From a virus (lineage: Duplodnaviria > Heunggongvirae > Uroviricota > Caudoviricetes): DNA of 33,104 nucleotides. The position numbers and the translations under genes are program-made. Below are positions 2,140-12,180 of the stretch, in pieces. The notes under the pieces are model-generated. The model saw nothing but the letters and a program-made list of their open reading frames with translations. It did no database searches and was not told the DNA's origin. The stretch is taken from IMG/VR virus record IMGVR_UViG_2563366897_000003. One strand, given 5' to 3'. Position 1 is the first letter of the stretch; every line of letters begins with the position of its first letter.

Positions 2140-3216
2140 GTGAGTATGGCTAACGCTTGGCTCAGATTATGGCATGACATGCCAAATGACCCTAAGTGGC
2201 GAACAATTGCCAGGGTGTCAGGGCAGCCAATTGCAACAGTGATGGCAGTGTATATCCACCTCCTGGTGAGCGCGTCACGAAATGTCACGCGAGGTCACAT
2301 TGATGTCACGACAGAAGATTTAGCAAGTGCGCTCGACGTGACAGAAGAGGTAATTGATTCAATTTTGCAGACGATGCAGGGGCGGGTACTTGATGGTGAT
2401 TTAATCACTGGATGGGAAAAACGCCAGGTGCTTAAAGAGGACAACGGCAATATTTCGCAAACCGCAAAATCTCCGGCAGAGCGCAAGAGGGCGCAGCGAG
2501 AGAGGGAAAGAAAGCGGGAACAAAATGGCGATTGTCACGGCGCGTCACGAAATGTCACGCACATGTCACGACGAGTCACGACAGATAAAGATACAGATAA
2601 AGATACAGATCAAGAAGATCAAAACACTATGGTCCATGGCGTAAAAAACGCCACGAACCAGGCAGGGGATGTTCAGACCGTCAATCCTGGTCAGCCAGCA
2701 GGCACGACACCGGAAGCCGATTCAGCGTATGCGCTGAAAGCCGATTCGGGCGCTGTGCAGCAGGTGATGACCCCAAGGCCGGAACAATCACACCAACTGC
2801 AGCAGCCTGAAGCCGATTTCGCCATTCAGCGGGAAGCCGATCGGGTAGTCCCGGAAAACACCGGGCTGTCTGTGGGACGAGTGGATTATCCGGATGTGTT
2901 CGAACAGGTCTGGCGGGAGTACCCGTTGCGTGCCGGAGCAAACCCGAAGAAATCCGCTTTCAGTGCATGGAAGGCCAGATTACGCGAGGGGGTGCCACCA
3001 GAGGCCATGCTGGATGGCGTGAGGCGTTACGCAAGATACTTGGCGGCTACCGGGAAAACGGGAACGGAATTTGTTCAGCGAGCGACGACGTTTTTTGGAC
3101 CGGACCGGAATTTTGAGAACCCCTGGTTGCTCCCGGTAAGCGGCACGAACAACCAGCGTTGTGTGAATCATATTTCTGAACCGGATAACGAAATTCCGCC
3201 GGGCTTCAGGGGGTAA
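2140..3216 (+). CDS. replication initiator / phage replisome organizer with embedded origin iterons
   Basis: 358 aa; N-terminus (WLRLWHDMPNDPKWRTIA) resembles the phage replisome-organizer N-terminal domain; conserved C-terminal block WREYPLRAGANPKKSAFSAWKARL...FFGP; two iteron clusters lie inside the coding sequence, as in lambda O. Confidence 0.7.
   Translation: MSMANAWLRLWHDMPNDPKWRTIARVSGQPIATVMAVYIHLLVSASRNVTRGHIDVTTEDLASALDVTEEVIDSILQTMQGRVLDGDLITGWEKRQVLKEDNGNISQTAKSPAERKRAQRERERKREQNGDCHGASRNVTHMSRRVTTDKDTDKDTDQEDQNTMVHGVKNATNQAGDVQTVNPGQPAGTTPEADSAYALKADSGAVQQVMTPRPEQSHQLQQPEADFAIQREADRVVPENTGLSVGRVDYPDVFEQVWREYPLRAGANPKKSAFSAWKARLREGVPPEAMLDGVRRYARYLAATGKTGTEFVQRATTFFGPDRNFENPWLLPVSGTNNQRCVNHISEPDNEIPPGFRG
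2274..2620. repeat. putative replication origin: GTCACG iteron arrays plus a tandem 12-bp repeat
   Basis: GTCAC(G/A) at 2274, 2284, 2294, 2305 and again at 2534, 2544, 2554, 2565, 2575 (10-11 bp spacing, about one helical turn), an inverted copy at 2337-2342, then tandem ACAGATAAAGAT x2 (2581-2604). Confidence 0.6.
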
Positions 3217-3256: not shown

Positions 3257-3679
3257 GTGGCAAAAGTTTTTACACAAGAAGAGCGGGAAAAAATTAAAGG
3301 ACAGGTTGTTGAACTCGTACGCCAGAGTGGGCGCGAGACGTTACGACAACTGGAAACTAAAACTGGGGCAACAAGATATCTGATGAGCGTTCTGGCCAGA
3401 GAGCTGGTTGCCAGTGGCGATGTATACAATTCTGGCTACGGGTTATTCCCGTCTGAACAGGCTCGTAAAGACTGGCAAAATGCCCGCAAAAAATTATCGA
3501 GGGCAAAGCTGAAGAAACCGGTTGTGGTTGATCCGGACCTTATCTGGTCGTTACCTGACGGAGAAATACGTCGCTACGACAGTCGCCTAAACATAATCTG
3601 TCGCGAGTGCCGGAAGAGTGAAGCTATGCAGCGTGTACTGGCTTTCTATCAGGGTAATTTTCAGGAGGCGGTACTGTGA
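3257..3679 (+). CDS. hypothetical protein (140 aa)
   Basis: ORF track; GTG start preceded by CAGGAGG; follows the replication gene. No Walker motif, so not an obvious DnaC/P-type helicase loader. Confidence 0.5.
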   Translation: MAKVFTQEEREKIKGQVVELVRQSGRETLRQLETKTGATRYLMSVLARELVASGDVYNSGYGLFPSEQARKDWQNARKKLSRAKLKKPVVVDPDLIWSLPDGEIRRYDSRLNIICRECRKSEAMQRVLAFYQGNFQEAVL

Positions 3680-4093
3680 GTGAAATTAGCTATCAGGCTT
3701 CAATTACCGCTGGCATTCGCATCAAAGGAGAGGAGCATGGAAATAAAACCAGAGGATGAGTTAAGCAATATCGTTTTATTTCCGGTAAAAGAGGATGACC
3801 CTCGTAATCAGGTTAATTTTCTTTATGAGCCATCGGAAAGACCATATTGTCATCACGCCTCTGTCCGGGTTGACGAAAAAGAGCGTCAGGTCCGCTGTAA
3901 AATCTGCGGTGCAGTTGTGGAGCCATTTGACTGGATGCTCTCTGTGGCGAAAAGAGAAACCAGACTGGCAGATGATGTAAGGCTCTTGCGTCAGGAGGAG
4001 CGGGAAAGGCGAAAAAATATAGAAAAGCTAATTCAGATTGAGCGTAACGCGAAAGCGCGGATACGCAGGGCGACAAAATCCAGAACTGAATAA
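3680..4093 (+). CDS. hypothetical protein with putative zinc-binding motif (CHH...CxxC)
   Basis: ORF track 3680..4093 (GTG directly after the upstream stop); an alternative ATG at 3737 has a stronger AAAGGAGAGG SD and gives 118 aa; contains CHHASVRVDEKERQVRCKICG and a basic coiled C-terminus. Confidence 0.5.
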   Translation: MKLAIRLQLPLAFASKERSMEIKPEDELSNIVLFPVKEDDPRNQVNFLYEPSERPYCHHASVRVDEKERQVRCKICGAVVEPFDWMLSVAKRETRLADDVRLLRQEERERRKNIEKLIQIERNAKARIRRATKSRTE

Positions 4094-4186
4094 TTAAATT
4101 TAGCTCTGTTAAAAATTTAATCCTTAACCGGAGGGATTTCTGCACCCTCAGAACATCAGGAGGCCGCCCGAAAGGGCGGTAGTTAA

Positions 4187-4369
4187 ATGCGAAAGTTTAA
4201 AATAATTATTGAAACGGGAATAGCCGGTGGAGATTTCGAGGATGAATTCGAAGTGGATGATGATGCGACGCCTGATGAAATACATGACGAAGCAAAAGAT
4301 ATTTTCTTTAACTACTGCAATTACTCATATCACGAAATAAAAGACGAAGAGGAAGAACAAAATGGCTGA
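4187..4369 (+). CDS. small highly acidic protein (60 aa)
   Basis: ORF track; very Asp/Glu-rich (GDFEDEFEVDDDATPDEIHDE...KDEEEEQNG); AGGAGG lies upstream, separated from the ATG by a GAAA-tetraloop hairpin. Confidence 0.45.
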   Translation: MRKFKIIIETGIAGGDFEDEFEVDDDATPDEIHDEAKDIFFNYCNYSYHEIKDEEEEQNG

Positions 4370-4537
4370 TTTTGGTTCAACTAAATACAACGTCAGTTTT
4401 GAAGAATGGCATGAACTGTTAATGGACTATGCAGAGTTACGTGGTGGCAGTGCTGCTGATGCTGAAGCATGGCGTGATGATTATGAAGCAGGAAAAACTC
4501 CGGTCGAAGCATATTGTGATGAGTGGGGCGATGAATG
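4362..4537 (+). CDS. small acidic protein (58 aa)
   Basis: Hand-translated MADFGSTKYNVSFEEWHELLMDYAELRGGSAADAEAWRDDYEAGKTPVEAYCDEWGDE; its ATG overlaps the stop of the preceding acidic gene (ATGGCTGA). Below the ORF-track size cut-off. Confidence 0.4.
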
Positions 4538-4860
4538 AGCGAGGTTAATTATCAGGAAGGGCATGAAACGGCGGGGCAAGCAAAAACAGTGGCATGGCGA
4601 TATCGCTACGTGAAAAAAAAGGCGTTACGGACTTTCAGGGGAAGTAGTGGTCTGGTGACTGGAAATATGTACCGAAAAAAGAGGATTGTAACGACAGGCC
4701 GAACTATGAAATTCAGGCCTTATTCACTGCCCCGCCAGTCCCGGTTACATCAGAAGAACTGGTTAAAGCTGTGCACTTTTATGAACAACTAAAACGCGAA
4801 AATCCACCAGCATCCGGAAACCTGATTACAGATTCCCAGATAAGGCAATGAGCTACCTGG
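4535..4860 (+). pseudogene. probable frameshifted gene remnant
   Basis: Track ORF 4535..4792 turns into low-complexity basic sequence after an A8 homopolymer (4613-4620); a second frame (4648-4851) encodes protein-like sequence (...NYEIQALFTAPPVPVTSEELVKAVHFYEQLKRENPPASGNLITDSQIRQ) with no start codon. Confidence 0.25.
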
Positions 4861-5201: not shown

Positions 5202-5460
5202 ATACAGCGAACGCCATTGGTTTAGTTGGATATTTACTGTGCCGGACAAAAACGGTTTGCGGGGAAATCTTAGTTAAGTAGAATGACTGCGGGTGCTTGA
5301 GGCTATCTGTCTCAGGCATGAACACCAAAAGGCAGATAGAGAAAAGCCCCAGTTAACATTACGCGTCCTGCAAGACGCTTAACATTAATCTGAGGCTCAA
5401 TCTATGAACGGCAAATCTAGGTTAGCCTCTTACGTGCCGAAAGGCAAGGAGAAGCAGGCT

Positions 5461-5616
5461 ATGAAGCAGCAAAAGGCGATGTTAATCGCCCTGATCGTCA
5501 TCTGTTTAACCGTCATAGTGACGGCACTGGTAACGAGGAAAGACCTCTGCGAGGTACGAATCCGAACCGGCCAGACGGAGGTCGCTGTCTTCACAGCTTA
5601 CGAACCTGAGGAGTAA
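5461..5616 (+). CDS. hok: Hok/Gef family type I toxin (HokD/RelF-like)
   Basis: MKQQKAMLIALIVICLTVIVTALVTRKDLCEVRIRTGQTEVAVFTAYEPEE is a clear Hok/Gef-family sequence; AAGGAG-like SD upstream; the track ORF starts earlier in frame at 5404 (possible leader/mok-like extension). Confidence 0.8.
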   Translation: MKQQKAMLIALIVICLTVIVTALVTRKDLCEVRIRTGQTEVAVFTAYEPEE

Positions 5617-8458: not shown

Positions 8459-8534
8459 GGCCCTTTAGCTCAGTGGTGAGAGCGAGCGACTCATAATCGC
8501 CAGGTCGCTGGTTCAAATCCAGCAAGAGCCACCA
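8459..8534 (+). tRNA. tRNA with CAU anticodon (ileX/ileZ-type tRNA-Ile2, or tRNA-Met)
   Basis: Cloverleaf readable by eye: GGCCCTT acceptor, GCTCAGTGG D-arm, CTCATAA anticodon loop (CAT), GGTTCAAATCC T-arm, encoded CCA at 8532-8534. Confidence 0.85.
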
Positions 8535-8634: not shown

Positions 8635-8708
8635 GCGTTGTTAGCTCAGCCGGACAGAGCAATTGCCTTCTAAGCAATCGGTCACTGGTTCGAATCCAGT
8701 ACAGCGCG
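8635..8708 (+). tRNA. tRNA-Arg (anticodon UCU, argN/argO-like)
   Basis: GCGTTGT acceptor pairs with ACAGCGC at the 3' end; CTTCTAA anticodon loop (TCT); GGTTCGAATCC T-arm; no encoded CCA. Confidence 0.85.
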
Positions 8709-9566
8709 CTATATTCATTCTTCCAGATTCCTTCCGGCAGAGCCTTATACTGAAATATACCTGGCTCAGGATATTGTTGAAAATATTTTATGTTTGTCAA
8801 AAATAAAAGTTCTGTTAAGTATTGATTGAGTGTTTGTTATACGGTCTAATGGTTTTTTCAGCATTAAATATTTATCATTCATATGGTGTGGGTAGAGTGA
8901 ATATTGATGAGGCGTCGGGGTGTTTCATCCTTAGGCAGCGTATTGATATAGTCAATGCAGGACGAGCAAAGGCCTTCAGCCGTTTGACAGTTTTGTTCTG
9001 TACTCCTGATCGTCTTTCGGGAAGAGACGTTATTATTCTGAATAGTGATGCTATACAGAGGGTTTGCGATGAGTTCATGGTTGCTAATTCAGAATTATTT
9101 GCTCTTGTTCAGGAGTACAACAGAATAGCCAGTACCTGTGGTATGGATGAACTTCGGATTACTCATCTGGGGTAGATACATATCTGGATTATCACTTGTT
9201 ACGGTAAAAAGTGATTGCTTACTGTTTTTGTGAGTGGCATTGCAGCAGCCGGATAATGTCAGTGCTGGCTGACGGTGTGCTGGTGGCGGGTGTGGTGGTT
9301 GTTGCTTTCCCGTTGCTGAAAAAGAAAACGCCAGACTGTTAGCCGGGTATCAGTTAGCGGGAGAAATTTTTAAATACTTCACAATTCAGGCGGTTGACTG
9401 TTGTCTGGTTTGCGGGGAGTTTGTTAAAAGAAACTGGCATGGTGAATCCCCCTGTGCGGAGGGGCAATCAGCGAGTAGGTATATGGGATAATCGCGGATT
9501 CAGGTGCTGGTACTGAATTCACCGGGAGGCACCCGGCACCATGCAATGGCACATAGCGCCACTCTC

Positions 9567-9602
9567 CAGCCCCTCTCCGGAGGGGCTGTTTATATTGATT
9601 TT
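9567..9602 (+). terminator. intrinsic terminator inside the cargo island
   Basis: CAGCCCCTC-TCCG-GAGGGGCTG (9-bp stem) followed by TTTATATTGATTTT. Confidence 0.5.
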
Positions 9603-10203: not shown

Positions 10204-12180
10204 ATGGTGGAAAGAACCATGGCATTTAAACACTATGATGTTGTCAGGGCGGCATCGCCGTCAGACCTTGCGAAACGACTGACACAAAAACTGAAGGAGG
10301 GGTGGCAGCCATTTGGCAGTCCGGTGGCCATCACGCCTTATACCCTGATGCAGGCCATTGCGGCGGAAGGTGATGTCACCACACCTGTGGTGGTGAAGCC
10401 GTCGGATGGAGAAGGCGCAGTTATCAGCACCACCAGCAACCCGGAGTATTACTTTGTTGTTGCCCTGGCCGGGCAGTCAAACGGTATGGCGTATGGTGAA
10501 GGGCTTCCGCTGCCGGAGACATATGACCGTCCGGACCCGCGTATTAAACAGCTGGCGCGTCGCAGCACTGTCACGCCGGGTGGTGCGTCCTGTAACTACA
10601 ATGACATTATTCCTGCGGACCACTGCCTGCATGATGTTCAGGATTTGAGTAAGTTTTCACACCCGAAAGCCAGCGCAGCTCAGTATGGATGCGTGGGGCA
10701 GGGATTACATATCGCGAAGAAATTGTTGCCGTTTATTCCGGCGAATGCCGGTATTCTTCTGGTTCCGTGCTGCCGTGGTGGTTCTGCATTTTTGGCGGGC
10801 GATGAAGGTACCTTCAGCGAATCCACCGGCGCAAGCGAGACCTCGGCACGCTGGGGTGTTGATAAGCCACTGTACAAGGACCTGCTTACCCGTACTCAGG
10901 CCGCACTGAAGGCCAACCCTAAAAATATTCTGCTTGCAGTGGTCTGGATGCAGGGCGAGTTTGATTTGAAACAGGGTGCATACGCCACTCAGCCGGGGCT
11001 GTTTGATTCCATGGTGGAAAAATATCGTTCTGACCTGTCGGAATTCGGAGGTCAGTGTCTCGGGGGCTCTCCGTCATCGGTTCCCTGGATTTGTGGCGAC
11101 ACGACCTACTACTGGAAGCAGACTTATTCTTCGCAATACGATGCGGTGTATGGTGCATACAAGACGAAATCCGCAAAAAAAATCTTCTTTGTGCCGTTTA
11201 TGACGGATGAAAACGGGCGAAATGTGGGTACCAACGAGCCGTCAGAAGATCCGGATGTTGCGGATATTGGGTATTACGGAGCCGGTGGTCGAACGGACGC
11301 CAAAACCTGGACGACGGCCGACCGTAAAACGCATTTTGGATCATGGGCACGTCGTGGGATTATTTCCGACCGTCTGGCAACGGCGATTCTTGTGCATGCC
11401 GGGAGAAACGCTGAATTCATTACCGGAAAACAGCCTGATACGGTGAAGCCCACCGGACCTTCCGGTGAAGGTACGGAGAGAGAGCCGGAAGCCCCGGTCA
11501 GTAACCGAACCCTGATGAGTCTGCTGGCGTCCGGCGAAGACCTGGCATCACAGGGCTGGCGCTATTATCACAAACCGGCGAGCGGAGACAATGTTAACAA
11601 AAACATTGCTGAAGCGGTGGTCAGTGATGCGGGGGCTACGGGAGGTAAGGCCCTGCAACTGAATAAACCGGAAAACCACATCTGGTTTCTGGAGCATGAT
11701 GCAGCCGGACAGGGAGTGGAGTTACTGAAGAAGGGGGGACGTGTGAGCGTACGGTTTAAGTTGCCGGGTTCACTGGTGCCGAATCAGTTTGCCCTGGGCA
11801 TTTACTGGCAGTTGTCGTCCCTGCCGGAGGGAGTGACGCTGGCAGAGGAAGGCAACGACATGCTGATGTCCTTCTTTCTGCAGACGGATGCGACGAACCT
11901 GAACGCGATGCACCACAAGAAGCCGAATGCGAAGCTGGAAACGTTCGGGGTCTTTGATAACGGATGGCACACACTGGCTTTTGAGTTTGCCGGAAACAAC
12001 AGCATTCAGGTGACGCCGGTACTGGATGAGAAACGGGGGACGCCGTTCACACTGGTGAAATCTCCGGCATCAGGGGCGGCGGACAAACTGCAACTGACAG
12101 GCATATCAAAGGCGGCGACATATACGCTGCTGATTGACAGTGTGAAGGTGGAAGTGAACAACGCGGACATCGCGGCATGA
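10204..12180 (+). CDS. nanS: NanS-p-type prophage sialate O-acetylesterase (DUF1737 N-terminus plus SGNH/SASA esterase domain)
   Basis: 658 aa; N-terminus AFKHYDVVRAASPSDLAKRLTQKLKEGWQPFGSPVAIT is the DUF1737-type leader of EHEC prophage NanS-p/L0105-like proteins; sits between Q/tRNAs and the holin as in Stx-phage-like prophages. True start may be the ATG at 10219. Confidence 0.8.
   Translation: MVERTMAFKHYDVVRAASPSDLAKRLTQKLKEGWQPFGSPVAITPYTLMQAIAAEGDVTTPVVVKPSDGEGAVISTTSNPEYYFVVALAGQSNGMAYGEGLPLPETYDRPDPRIKQLARRSTVTPGGASCNYNDIIPADHCLHDVQDLSKFSHPKASAAQYGCVGQGLHIAKKLLPFIPANAGILLVPCCRGGSAFLAGDEGTFSESTGASETSARWGVDKPLYKDLLTRTQAALKANPKNILLAVVWMQGEFDLKQGAYATQPGLFDSMVEKYRSDLSEFGGQCLGGSPSSVPWICGDTTYYWKQTYSSQYDAVYGAYKTKSAKKIFFVPFMTDENGRNVGTNEPSEDPDVADIGYYGAGGRTDAKTWTTADRKTHFGSWARRGIISDRLATAILVHAGRNAEFITGKQPDTVKPTGPSGEGTEREPEAPVSNRTLMSLLASGEDLASQGWRYYHKPASGDNVNKNIAEAVVSDAGATGGKALQLNKPENHIWFLEHDAAGQGVELLKKGGRVSVRFKLPGSLVPNQFALGIYWQLSSLPEGVTLAEEGNDMLMSFFLQTDATNLNAMHHKKPNAKLETFGVFDNGWHTLAFEFAGNNSIQVTPVLDEKRGTPFTLVKSPASGAADKLQLTGISKAATYTLLIDSVKVEVNNADIAA

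What the first reader, a model, noticed from the sequence alone, without database searches (positions are those of the whole stretch)
4128..4537. Two overlapping small acidic proteins behind a structured leader: candidate DNA mimics or anti-defence factors
Seen: ORFs of 60 aa (4187-4369) and 58 aa (4362-4537) are both strongly Asp/Glu-rich and overlap by 8 nt (ATGGCTGA). The first is preceded by AGGAGG (4158-4163) that is 23 nt from the ATG, with a 6-bp GAAA-tetraloop hairpin (4164-4179) in between; a second hairpin (4131-4149) lies just upstream. Established: many phage anti-restriction and anti-defence proteins are small acidic DNA mimics, and a hairpin between SD and start codon can restore functional spacing (as in T4 gene 38). 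Inference: an early-expressed anti-defence pair whose translation depends on folding of the leader.
Basis: partly seen in the sequence, partly recalled or inferred. Interest (0 to 1): 0.5.

Follow-up and report, generated by a model that had tools for sequence, protein, structure and literature searches.

The report
Acidic prophage gene pair, split ribosome site
Two real, conserved, very acidic small genes of unknown function in an E. coli lambda-like prophage sit behind a portable ribosome-binding site interrupted by a hairpin; the leader idea is plausible, but nothing yet shows they are DNA mimics or anti-defence factors.

Summary
ORF1 (4187-4369, 60 aa, pI 4.05, net -15) and ORF2 (4362-4538, 58 aa, pI 4.05, net -12) overlap by ATGGCTGA. 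AGGAGG (4158-4163) lies 23 nt before the ATG, with a CCGCCC-GAAA-GGGCGG hairpin between.

Both genes are under purifying selection (pN/pS about 0.07). The region occurs in about half of complete E. coli genomes. ORF1 is Pfam DUF7167 and ORF2 matches phrog_519. Each family also occurs alone, in virulent phages, so they are not an obligate pair.

New here: the roughly 27-nt SD-plus-hairpin unit is a portable, repeated intergenic element. It also precedes an unrelated 72-aa membrane-protein gene, with the ATG 6 nt after the stem (7 nt for ORF1). All four combinations of two upstream and two downstream contexts exist. Hairpin-less ORF1 relatives have GGAGG 7 nt from the ATG. One stem pair shows G-C, G.U, A.C and A-U, but covariation is not significant.

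This fits a T4 gene 38/25-type split ribosome-binding site. The upstream hairpin (4131-4149) is not supported.

The parts
4094..4186 (+). Intergenic leader between the 137-aa zinc-ribbon gene (phrog_1621, stop at 4091-4093) and ORF1
   Evidence: no promoter-like or terminator-like site on the + strand; no Rfam match
4131..4149 (+). Upstream 5-bp stem GAGGG/CCCTC with a 9-nt loop. It is present but not supported as functional.
   Evidence: the polymorphisms CCATC, CCCTA and GATGG break the stem. This region is missing from the short-leader copies of the element.
4158..4163 (+). AGGAGG Shine-Dalgarno sequence, single-stranded and directly 5' of the hairpin
   Evidence: The duplex with the 16S 3' end is -10.3 kcal/mol. 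It is kept in nearly all variants; the exceptions are AGGAAG and GGGAGG.
4163..4180 (+). Hairpin: 6 G-C pairs (4164-4169 with 4174-4179), a GAAA tetraloop (4170-4173) and a possible closing G4163-U4180 pair
   Evidence: 96% of stem cells are paired across 15 distinct variants. One pair shows G-C, G.U, A.C and A-U.
4156..4181 (+). Portable SD-plus-hairpin element TCAGGAGGCCGCCCGAAAGGGCGGTA. This is the stretch shared by all recombinant contexts.
   Evidence: The overlapping 30-nt query (4154-4183) has 4889 places in 2652 complete E. coli genomes, all in unannotated DNA in the records listed. There is a single copy in this window.
4180..4186 (+). 7-nt spacer TAGTTAA between the stem and the ATG. 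It contains an in-frame TAA at 4184-4186, which is GAA in some variants and then gives spurious 87-aa annotations.
4187..4369 (+). ORF1: 60-aa DUF7167 protein (PF23768, phrog_1997, WP_001224662). The model has a beta-hairpin followed by a helix. Conserved motif: FEVxDDATxEEIxDEA.
4348..4353 (+). AGAGGA, an SD-like sequence for ORF2 inside the acidic tail codons of ORF1; its GAGG core ends 9 nt before the ORF2 ATG
   Evidence: duplex -6.0 kcal/mol; the junction is conserved in all 188 intact copies examined
4362..4538 (+). ORF2: 58-aa acidic protein, predicted three-helix bundle (phrog_519, WP_000753060, no Pfam family). It overlaps ORF1 by ATGGCTGA, so translation is probably coupled.
4535..4792 (+). 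ORF3: a degraded third gene of the string, starting at an ATGA overlap with the ORF2 stop. RefSeq marks the equivalent as frameshifted with an internal stop.
   Evidence: an intact 152-aa form is seen in L026; ArgO145 has an ead/Ea22-like gene at this position

Best explanation
This is a mobile accessory cassette in the delayed-early operon of an E. coli Rac/Qin-like lambdoid prophage.

Shown:
- ORF1 (DUF7167) and ORF2 (phrog_519-like) are real genes under purifying selection. They encode very acidic 60- and 58-aa proteins.
- The cassette moves as a block between the nin-type region and the exo-xis/ea-type region of different phages.
- Each gene family also exists on its own, in virulent phages as well.

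Inferred mechanism of expression:
- ORF1 is started from a split ribosome-binding site. AGGAGG is held about 5-7 nt from the AUG once the GC-rich GAAA-tetraloop hairpin between them folds. This is the arrangement described for T4 genes 38 and 25.
- ORF2 is then translated by coupling through the ATGGCTGA overlap.
- The roughly 27-nt SD-plus-hairpin unit is portable. It serves at least two unrelated genes and marks the joints at which early modules are exchanged.

Inferred function (weakest step): each protein acts alone as a small acidic stoichiometric binder, a decoy for a host nucleic-acid-binding protein. This would serve host takeover or counter-defence. DNA mimicry is compatible with the data but undemonstrated.
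For: Real genes:
- pN/pS is about 0.07 in the most divergent alleles, and 188 of 204 copies keep the 60-aa frame.
- ORF1 scores 55.1 bits against DUF7167, cut-off 24.4. PHROG matches are E 9e-31 and 4.5e-23.
- The region is in 2533 of 5426 complete E. coli genomes.

Mobility and early context:
- The neighbourhood here is YdaS/YdaT-like, replication genes, DUF977, zinc-ribbon gene, ORF1, ORF2, hok/sok, DUF968, RusA, Q.
- In ArgO145 the same pair lies among ead/Ea22-like genes.
- Family members in Serratia, Pseudomonas, Bacilli and Enterobacter elements sit in strings of small early genes.
- Homologues also occur in virulent Enterococcus Herelleviridae, Klebsiella Guernseyvirinae and Ackermannviridae phages.

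Leader:
- AGGAGG is free, with an anti-SD duplex of -10.3 kcal/mol. The hairpin is stable, and the leader fold has z = -2.8.
- The identical unit precedes a 72-aa membrane-protein gene with a 6-nt spacer, against 7 nt for ORF1.
- All four combinations of upstream and downstream context exist. Thirty-eight fetched loci carry two copies.
- Hairpin-less ORF1 relatives have GGAGG-N7-ATG or GGAG-N8-ATG.
- Stem changes are mostly C to U, which keeps G.U pairs. One pair reaches a compensated A-U state in 11 loci.
- The T4 precedent is spacing reduced from 22 to 5 nt (gene 38) and from 27 to 11 nt (gene 25) (PMC3014915).

Acidity is a family trait. For 84 ORF1-family members the net charge is -6 to -16, with median pI 4.05. 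For the ORF2 family the median net charge is -9. Five of the 15 near-invariant ORF1 positions are Asp or Glu.
Against: - There is no expression, binding or phenotype data for either protein. Literature searches for DUF7167 and the accessions found nothing relevant.
- There is no similarity to any solved DNA mimic or named anti-restriction family.
- Hairpin covariation is not better than shuffles: 276 of 500 shuffles reach the observed value. Some variants carry A.C or C.A mismatches.
- The 3' arm GGGCGGU is SD-like (-8.2 kcal/mol), sits exactly 7 nt from the ATG, and aligns with the canonical SD of hairpin-less relatives. The hairpin could therefore repress rather than enable initiation.
- Conservation of the unit could simply reflect its role as a recombination joint.
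Confidence: 0.5

Rival explanations
1. The hairpin is a translational brake. The functional SD is the degenerate GGGCGGU in the 3' arm, 7 nt from the ATG. The 5' arm CCGCCC sequesters it. The upstream AGGAGG acts at most as a standby site. ORF1, and ORF2 through coupling, would then be kept low or made conditional on temperature, a helicase or an RNase.
For: The 3' arm pairs with the anti-SD at -8.2 kcal/mol and lies at the canonical distance. MAFFT aligns it with the GGAGG of hairpin-less relatives. The 3' arm is nearly invariant, while the 5' arm varies.
Against: Opening a 7-bp GC stem with a GNRA loop costs more than the weak duplex returns. A perfect AGGAGG abutting the stem is kept in almost every copy. 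The same geometry works as an activator in T4 genes 38 and 25. Both genes are under strong purifying selection, so they are expressed.
Confidence: 0.2
2. The SD-plus-hairpin unit is conserved mainly as a short linker at which lambdoid phages exchange early modules by homologous recombination. Its effect on translation would be incidental.
For: Mosaic break points lie immediately 5' of TCAGGAGG and a few nt 3' of the stem. All four combinations of upstream and downstream context exist, and there can be two copies per prophage. The 30-nt query covering the element has 4889 places in E. coli genomes, against 3588 for the 461-nt gene region.
Against: This does not explain why the ATG of two unrelated genes sits 6-7 nt after the stem. 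It does not explain why the unit contains a perfect SD, or why stem changes are mostly pair-preserving. It is compatible with the split-RBS model rather than exclusive of it.
Confidence: 0.2
3. ORF1 and/or ORF2 are classical anti-restriction DNA mimics of the Ocr/ArdA type that block type I R-M or related DNA-targeting defences.
For: The proteins are small, with pI 4.05, 28-33% Asp plus Glu, acidity conserved across both families and an early-gene position. ORF1 homologues overlap an annotated exonuclease gene in two unrelated virulent phages. From my own knowledge, this recalls the position of the RecBCD inhibitor gene 5.9 next to gene 6 in T7.
Against: There is no Pfam, PDB-sequence or fold match to any mimic. 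There is no conserved neighbour across contexts. Acidity alone is not specific.
Confidence: 0.15

Closest known systems
Split translation-initiation regions of bacteriophage T4 genes 38 and 25 (Nivinskas et al. 1999; Malys and Nivinskas 2009; reviewed in PMC3014915)
   Same: The SD is too far from the AUG (23 nt here; 22 and 27 nt in T4). A hairpin lies wholly between them and would cut the effective spacing to 5-7 nt (5 and 11 nt in T4). The structure is present in close relatives and absent in distant ones, which have a normal RBS.
   Different: This one is in temperate lambdoid prophages. The unit is a short portable element found before at least two unrelated genes, and often twice per prophage. 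There is no mutational or probing evidence. The 3' arm is itself SD-like.
Pfam DUF7167 (PF23768) / PHROG 1997
   Same: ORF1 matches over its full length above the gathering threshold. Size is 52-65 aa and the core motif is FEVxDDAT..EI..EA.
   Different: Nothing. ORF1 is an ordinary member. The family has no known function or solved structure.
PHROG 519 (small helical acidic phage proteins; no Pfam family)
   Same: ORF2 matches at E 4.5e-23. It shares the motif FEEW..L...A..GGS..D..AWR.DY..GKTP.EAW.DEWG with homologues in Ackermannviridae and in enterobacterial prophages.
   Different: ORF2 covers only profile positions 76-137 of 143. Most relatives found are stand-alone proteins of 50-65 aa.
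DNA-mimic anti-defence proteins (T7 Ocr, ArdA, T4 Arn, T7 gp5.9, lambda Gam)
   Same: Small, strongly acidic and encoded in early regions (my own knowledge of these proteins).
Accessory genes of the lambdoid nin and exo-xis regions (ren, nin genes, orf60a/61/63/73, ea22)
   Same: Same genomic niches. The genes are short, often overlap, are exchanged as modules, and neighbour Ead/Ea22 genes.
   Different: There is no match to the Pfam families of those genes.

Membership tests
Pfam DUF7167 (PF23768) | Score at or above the curated gathering threshold over the whole domain | tested here: met
   55.1 bits against a cut-off of 24.4; residues 2-53 match profile positions 1-60 of 60
PHROG 519 | Significant match to the family profile | tested here: met
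   E 4.5e-23, but only to profile positions 76-137 of 143
Split RBS of the T4 gene 38/25 type | Strong SD at a non-functional distance (over about 15 nt) from the start codon | tested here: met
   AGGAGG at 4158-4163, ATG at 4187, 23 nt between them
Split RBS of the T4 gene 38/25 type | A stable stem-loop entirely between the SD and the AUG that restores a spacing of about 5-11 nt | tested here: met
   A 6-7 bp GC stem with a GAAA loop is present in the MFE and centroid folds; z = -2.8; 7 nt (or 5-6 nt) remain
Split RBS of the T4 gene 38/25 type | No competing accessible SD at canonical distance | tested here: inconclusive
   The 3' arm GGGCGGU is SD-like (-8.2 kcal/mol) at 7 nt, but it is locked in the stem
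Split RBS of the T4 gene 38/25 type | Structure maintained in evolution (covariation) | tested here: inconclusive
   96.2% of stem cells are paired; there is one pair with a double change; this is not above shuffles (276/500)
Split RBS of the T4 gene 38/25 type | Stem-destabilising mutations lower translation and compensatory ones restore it | not testable with these tools
   Needs reporter fusions or toeprinting
DNA-mimic / anti-restriction proteins (Ocr, ArdA, ArdB/KlcA, Arn, Gam, gp5.9) | Sequence membership in a named family | tested here: not met
   The Pfam scan gives only DUF7167 for ORF1 and nothing for ORF2 or 37 of its relatives. There are no PDB sequence or profile hits with E below 0.1.
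DNA-mimic / anti-restriction proteins | Fold similarity to a solved mimic | tested here: not met
DNA-mimic / anti-restriction proteins | Small size and strongly acidic surface | tested here: met
   pI 4.05 for both; net charge -15 and -12; acidity is conserved in both families
DNA-mimic / anti-restriction proteins | Carboxylates arrayed like DNA phosphates, and binding to or inhibition of a DNA-binding enzyme | not testable with these tools
Intrinsic terminator | GC-rich hairpin followed by a U-tract | tested here: not met
   The stem is followed by UAGUUAAAUG. No terminator-like site is called here on either strand.
Obligate two-gene system (for example toxin-antitoxin or a heterodimer pair) | The two genes co-occur wherever either is found | tested here: not met
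   ORF1 occurs without ORF2 in L089-L100, Pseudomonas, Bacilli and Enterococcus phages. ORF2 occurs without ORF1 in Ackermannviridae and Enterobacter prophages.

The most novel reading that the evidence does not exclude
The 27-nt SD-plus-hairpin unit is a dedicated, portable translation-initiation cassette of lambdoid phages. It both sets the expression of early accessory genes and serves as the joint for swapping them. DUF7167 and the ORF2 family would be two new, independent classes of acidic decoy inhibitors of host DNA-targeting defence or repair enzymes, shared by temperate and virulent phages of Gram-negative and Gram-positive hosts.
Probability: 0.12. Interest if true: 0.65.

Novelty: new member of a known kind. 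Interest (0 to 1): 0.38.

Why it matters
About half of complete E. coli genomes carry this cassette, yet neither protein family has any known function or structure. Relatives occur in virulent phages considered for therapy, including Ackermannviridae and Enterococcus Herelleviridae. They are therefore reasonable, cheap candidates for anti-defence or host-takeover screens.

The leader would be a second natural class of split ribosome-binding site outside the T4-like phages. Here it takes the form of a short reusable element. This matters for gene calling: several databases carry spurious 87-93-aa N-terminally extended versions. It also bears on how mosaic phage genomes keep swapped genes expressible.

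Tried and rejected
- Rfam, at gathering thresholds on the whole window and at E up to 10 on 4000-4400, found nothing at the leader.
- The promoter/terminator scan found no + strand site in the intergenic region, and the hairpin has no U-tract.
- The variant that seemed to lack AGGAGG (L010, L026, L043) might have meant the 3' arm alone suffices. It is instead an IS insertion into the hairpin, so it is not informative.
- The 87-93-aa extended ORF1 proteins in databases arise where TAA at 4184-4186 is GAA, or from other upstream contexts. The DUF7167 profile starts at residue 2 of the 60-aa form, so 4187 is the family start.
- The upstream hairpin 4131-4149 is not part of the mechanism. It carries disruptive SNPs and is absent from the short-leader copies.
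- Literature searches for DUF7167, the WP accessions, the PHROG ids, the gene names of the Rac record, and lambdoid anti-defence accessory regions found nothing on these proteins.
- Charge-pattern analysis of the models was not possible because the coordinates are not exposed.

Full report
**Where the window comes from**

The window is an E. coli lambdoid prophage of the Rac/Qin type. Around the finding the gene order is as follows:
- a repressor region with YdaS/YdaT-like genes;
- a 358-aa replication-type gene (2140-3216);
- DUF977 (3257-3679);
- a 137-aa zinc-ribbon protein of phrog_1621 (3680-4093);
- ORF1, ORF2 and a degraded third ORF;
- sok/hokD (5291-5616);
- DUF968, RusA and the Q antiterminator;
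- two tRNA genes.

Late genes are lambda-type. The 461 bases around the finding occur in 2533 of 5426 complete E. coli genomes and in 16 deposited phage genomes.

**Observation check**

- ORF1 (4187-4369) is 60 aa with 20 Asp plus Glu, net charge -15 and pI 4.05.
- ORF2 (4362-4538) is 58 aa with 16 Asp plus Glu, net charge -12 and pI 4.05.
- They overlap by ATGGCTGA.
- AGGAGG lies at 4158-4163.
- CCGCCC-GAAA-GGGCGG lies at 4164-4179, with a possible G4163-U4180 closing pair.
- The ATG is at 4187.

The 24-nt SD-plus-hairpin string never appears in shuffles, even with 3 mismatches allowed. The leader folds better than shuffles, with z = -2.8.

**The ORFs are real genes**

Among fetched copies, 188 of 204 keep the 60-aa frame. 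Of these, 182 are followed by an intact 58-aa ORF2 at the same 8-nt overlap. The most divergent alleles give pN/pS of about 0.07 for both genes.

ORF1 is a full-length member of Pfam DUF7167 (55.1 bits, cut-off 24.4) and of phrog_1997. ORF2 matches phrog_519 and has no Pfam family.

**Family distribution**

A profile search finds DUF7167 proteins of 52-65 aa in Klebsiella, Citrobacter, Serratia, Yersinia, Kosakonia, Pseudomonas and Stutzerimonas, and in a Bacilli-like metagenome bin. They also occur in virulent Enterococcus Herelleviridae and Klebsiella Guernseyvirinae phages.

ORF2 relatives form a small family of 81 clusters among 1.84 billion representatives. They are present in 198 phage records, most of them Salmonella, Klebsiella and Escherichia phages and including virulent Ackermannviridae, as well as Enterobacter prophages.

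The two families are distributed independently:
- ORF1 relatives are followed by other genes in L089-L100 and in the Pseudomonas, Bacilli and Serratia elements.
- ORF2 relatives stand next to Ead/Ea22 genes without ORF1.

They are therefore not an obligate pair.

**Genomic niche**

The niche is consistent: strings of short early genes.
- In this window the cassette follows the replication genes, in a nin-type position.
- In Stx2a phage ArgO145 the identical pair lies among ead/Ea22-like genes.
- An Enterobacter ORF2 homologue is found in both positions, after O/P and next to xis/int.
- In two unrelated virulent phages the DUF7167 gene overlaps a gene annotated as an exonuclease. I treat this as a lead only.

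**Protein models and comparison with known proteins**

AlphaFold2 gives ORF1 a beta-hairpin (residues 2-8 and 17-23) followed by a helix (29-43), at pLDDT 87.6. It gives ORF2 a three-helix bundle at pLDDT 78.5.

- BFVD returns only uncharacterised small phage proteins.
- Single-sequence and profile searches of all PDB sequences give nothing below E 0.1.

Acidity is a family trait. Net charge is -6 to -16 across 84 DUF7167 members, and the median is -9 in the ORF2 family. Five of the 15 near-invariant DUF7167 positions are Asp or Glu.

The proteins therefore have the generic hallmarks of decoy or mimic proteins and none of the specific ones. DNA mimics are convergent, so the lack of fold similarity lowers "is an Ocr/ArdA" but does not exclude "works like one".

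**The leader**

Several comparative results bear on it.

1. Mosaic break points. In one set of loci the upstream sequence is unrelated right up to TCAGGAGG, so the SD and hairpin travel with the downstream gene.

2. A second gene. The same unit, TC(A/G)GGAGG-CCGCCC-GAAA-GGGCGG-TA, also precedes an unrelated 72-aa membrane-protein gene (MTTLFRKEYP...). Its ATG is 6 nt after the stem, against 7 nt for ORF1.
   - Thirty-eight fetched loci carry two copies, 1.06-1.7 kb apart.
   - All four combinations of two upstream and two downstream contexts exist.
   - In complete E. coli genomes the 30-nt query (4154-4183) has 4889 places in 2652 genomes, up to 9 per genome. No gene is annotated under the match in any listed record. 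The 461-nt gene region has 3588 places.

3. Relatives without the hairpin. More distant enterobacterial ORF1 relatives have an ordinary RBS, GGAGG-N7-ATG or GGAG-N8-ATG. Pseudomonas and Bacilli relatives also lack the hairpin.

4. Variation in the stem. Across 15 distinct variants, 96% of stem cells pair.
   - Changes are mostly C to U in the 5' arm, which keeps G.U pairs in the + strand RNA.
   - One pair shows all four states: G-C, G.U, A.C and a compensated A-U (11 loci).
   - The formal covariation test is no better than shuffles (276 of 500), because variation is so low.

5. A false lead removed. The apparent variant without an SD is an IS insertion into the hairpin.

6. The upstream stem. 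The stem at 4131-4149 carries disruptive polymorphisms and is absent from the short-leader copies.

**Interpretation of the leader**

The geometry is almost that of T4 gene 38. There, 22 nt is reduced to 5 nt; in gene 25, 27 nt is reduced to 11 nt, and the intervening structure enhances initiation (PMC3014915). Here 23 nt would become 5-7 nt.

AGGAGG is single-stranded and pairs with the 16S 3' end at -10.3 kcal/mol.

The main rival rests on the 3' arm GGGCGGU. It is SD-like (-8.2 kcal/mol), sits at the canonical 7 nt, and aligns with the SD of hairpin-less relatives. The hairpin could therefore be a sequestering brake.

A third reading is that the unit is conserved as a recombination linker. 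That reading is compatible with either translational model.

I favour the split-RBS reading at about 0.55 for three reasons:
- a perfect SD abuts the stem in nearly all copies;
- two unrelated genes keep the same post-stem spacing;
- both genes are clearly expressed, judging by selection.

ORF2 most likely depends on coupling through the conserved ATGGCTGA overlap, with a weak internal AGAGGA.

**Verdict**

The "pair" and "DNA mimic / anti-defence" parts remain speculation. The genes are catalogued but uncharacterised families, and the leader is a new example of a known mechanism. Interest is moderate.

Noticed in passing
L009 about 2050-2270; L245 7029-7247; also L032, L241 (not in this window): A 72-aa predicted membrane protein (MTTLFRKEYPQKSRATEFLFLILFIVLMIP...) is preceded by the same SD-plus-hairpin element, with a 6-nt spacer. 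It often lies about 1.06 kb from the ORF1 copy.
   Followed up: partly
L026 1588-2954 (also L010, L043): IS elements (an IS3-family transposase and a second transposase fragment) are inserted exactly inside the leader hairpin. This removes AGGAGG and the 5' arm while ORF1 and ORF2 stay intact.
   Followed up: partly
window 4535-4851: The third ORF of the string starts at an ATGA overlap with the ORF2 stop and is degraded here. RefSeq marks the equivalent as frameshifted with an internal stop. Other prophages have an intact 152-aa or ead/Ea22-like gene at this position.
   Followed up: partly
window 4184-4186: The in-frame TAA just before the ORF1 ATG is GAA in many variants. This opens the frame upstream and explains the 87-93-aa extended DUF7167 entries in databases, which are probably mis-called starts.
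   Followed up: partly
window 5291-5616: A hok/sok type I toxin-antitoxin locus (Rfam sok, 112 bits; HokD-like ORF) lies about 0.75 kb downstream of the cassette.
   Followed up: no
window 9408-9597: A full-length match to the gammaproteobacterial sRNA STnc100 (132 bits) lies downstream of Q and of the two tRNA genes (8459-8531, 8635-8708).
   Followed up: no
window 10204-12180: A 658-aa protein with DUF1737, SASA (sialate O-acetylesterase) and DUF6645 domains occupies the position where Stx phages carry stx and nanS-p. No toxin gene was seen.
   Followed up: no
L224 3501-3671; L225 3501-3671: DUF7167 homologues overlap a gene annotated as an exonuclease by 11-13 nt in Klebsiella phage VLCpiS11a and Enterococcus phage PBEF129. 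This may hint at a link to DNA-end metabolism.
   Followed up: no
PP818812.1 (hits H26, H41): A record named Actinobacillus phage vB_Apl-pPE4 carries this E. coli cassette at 96% nucleotide identity. That is unexpected for the stated host; it could reflect contamination or a mislabelled host.
   Followed up: no
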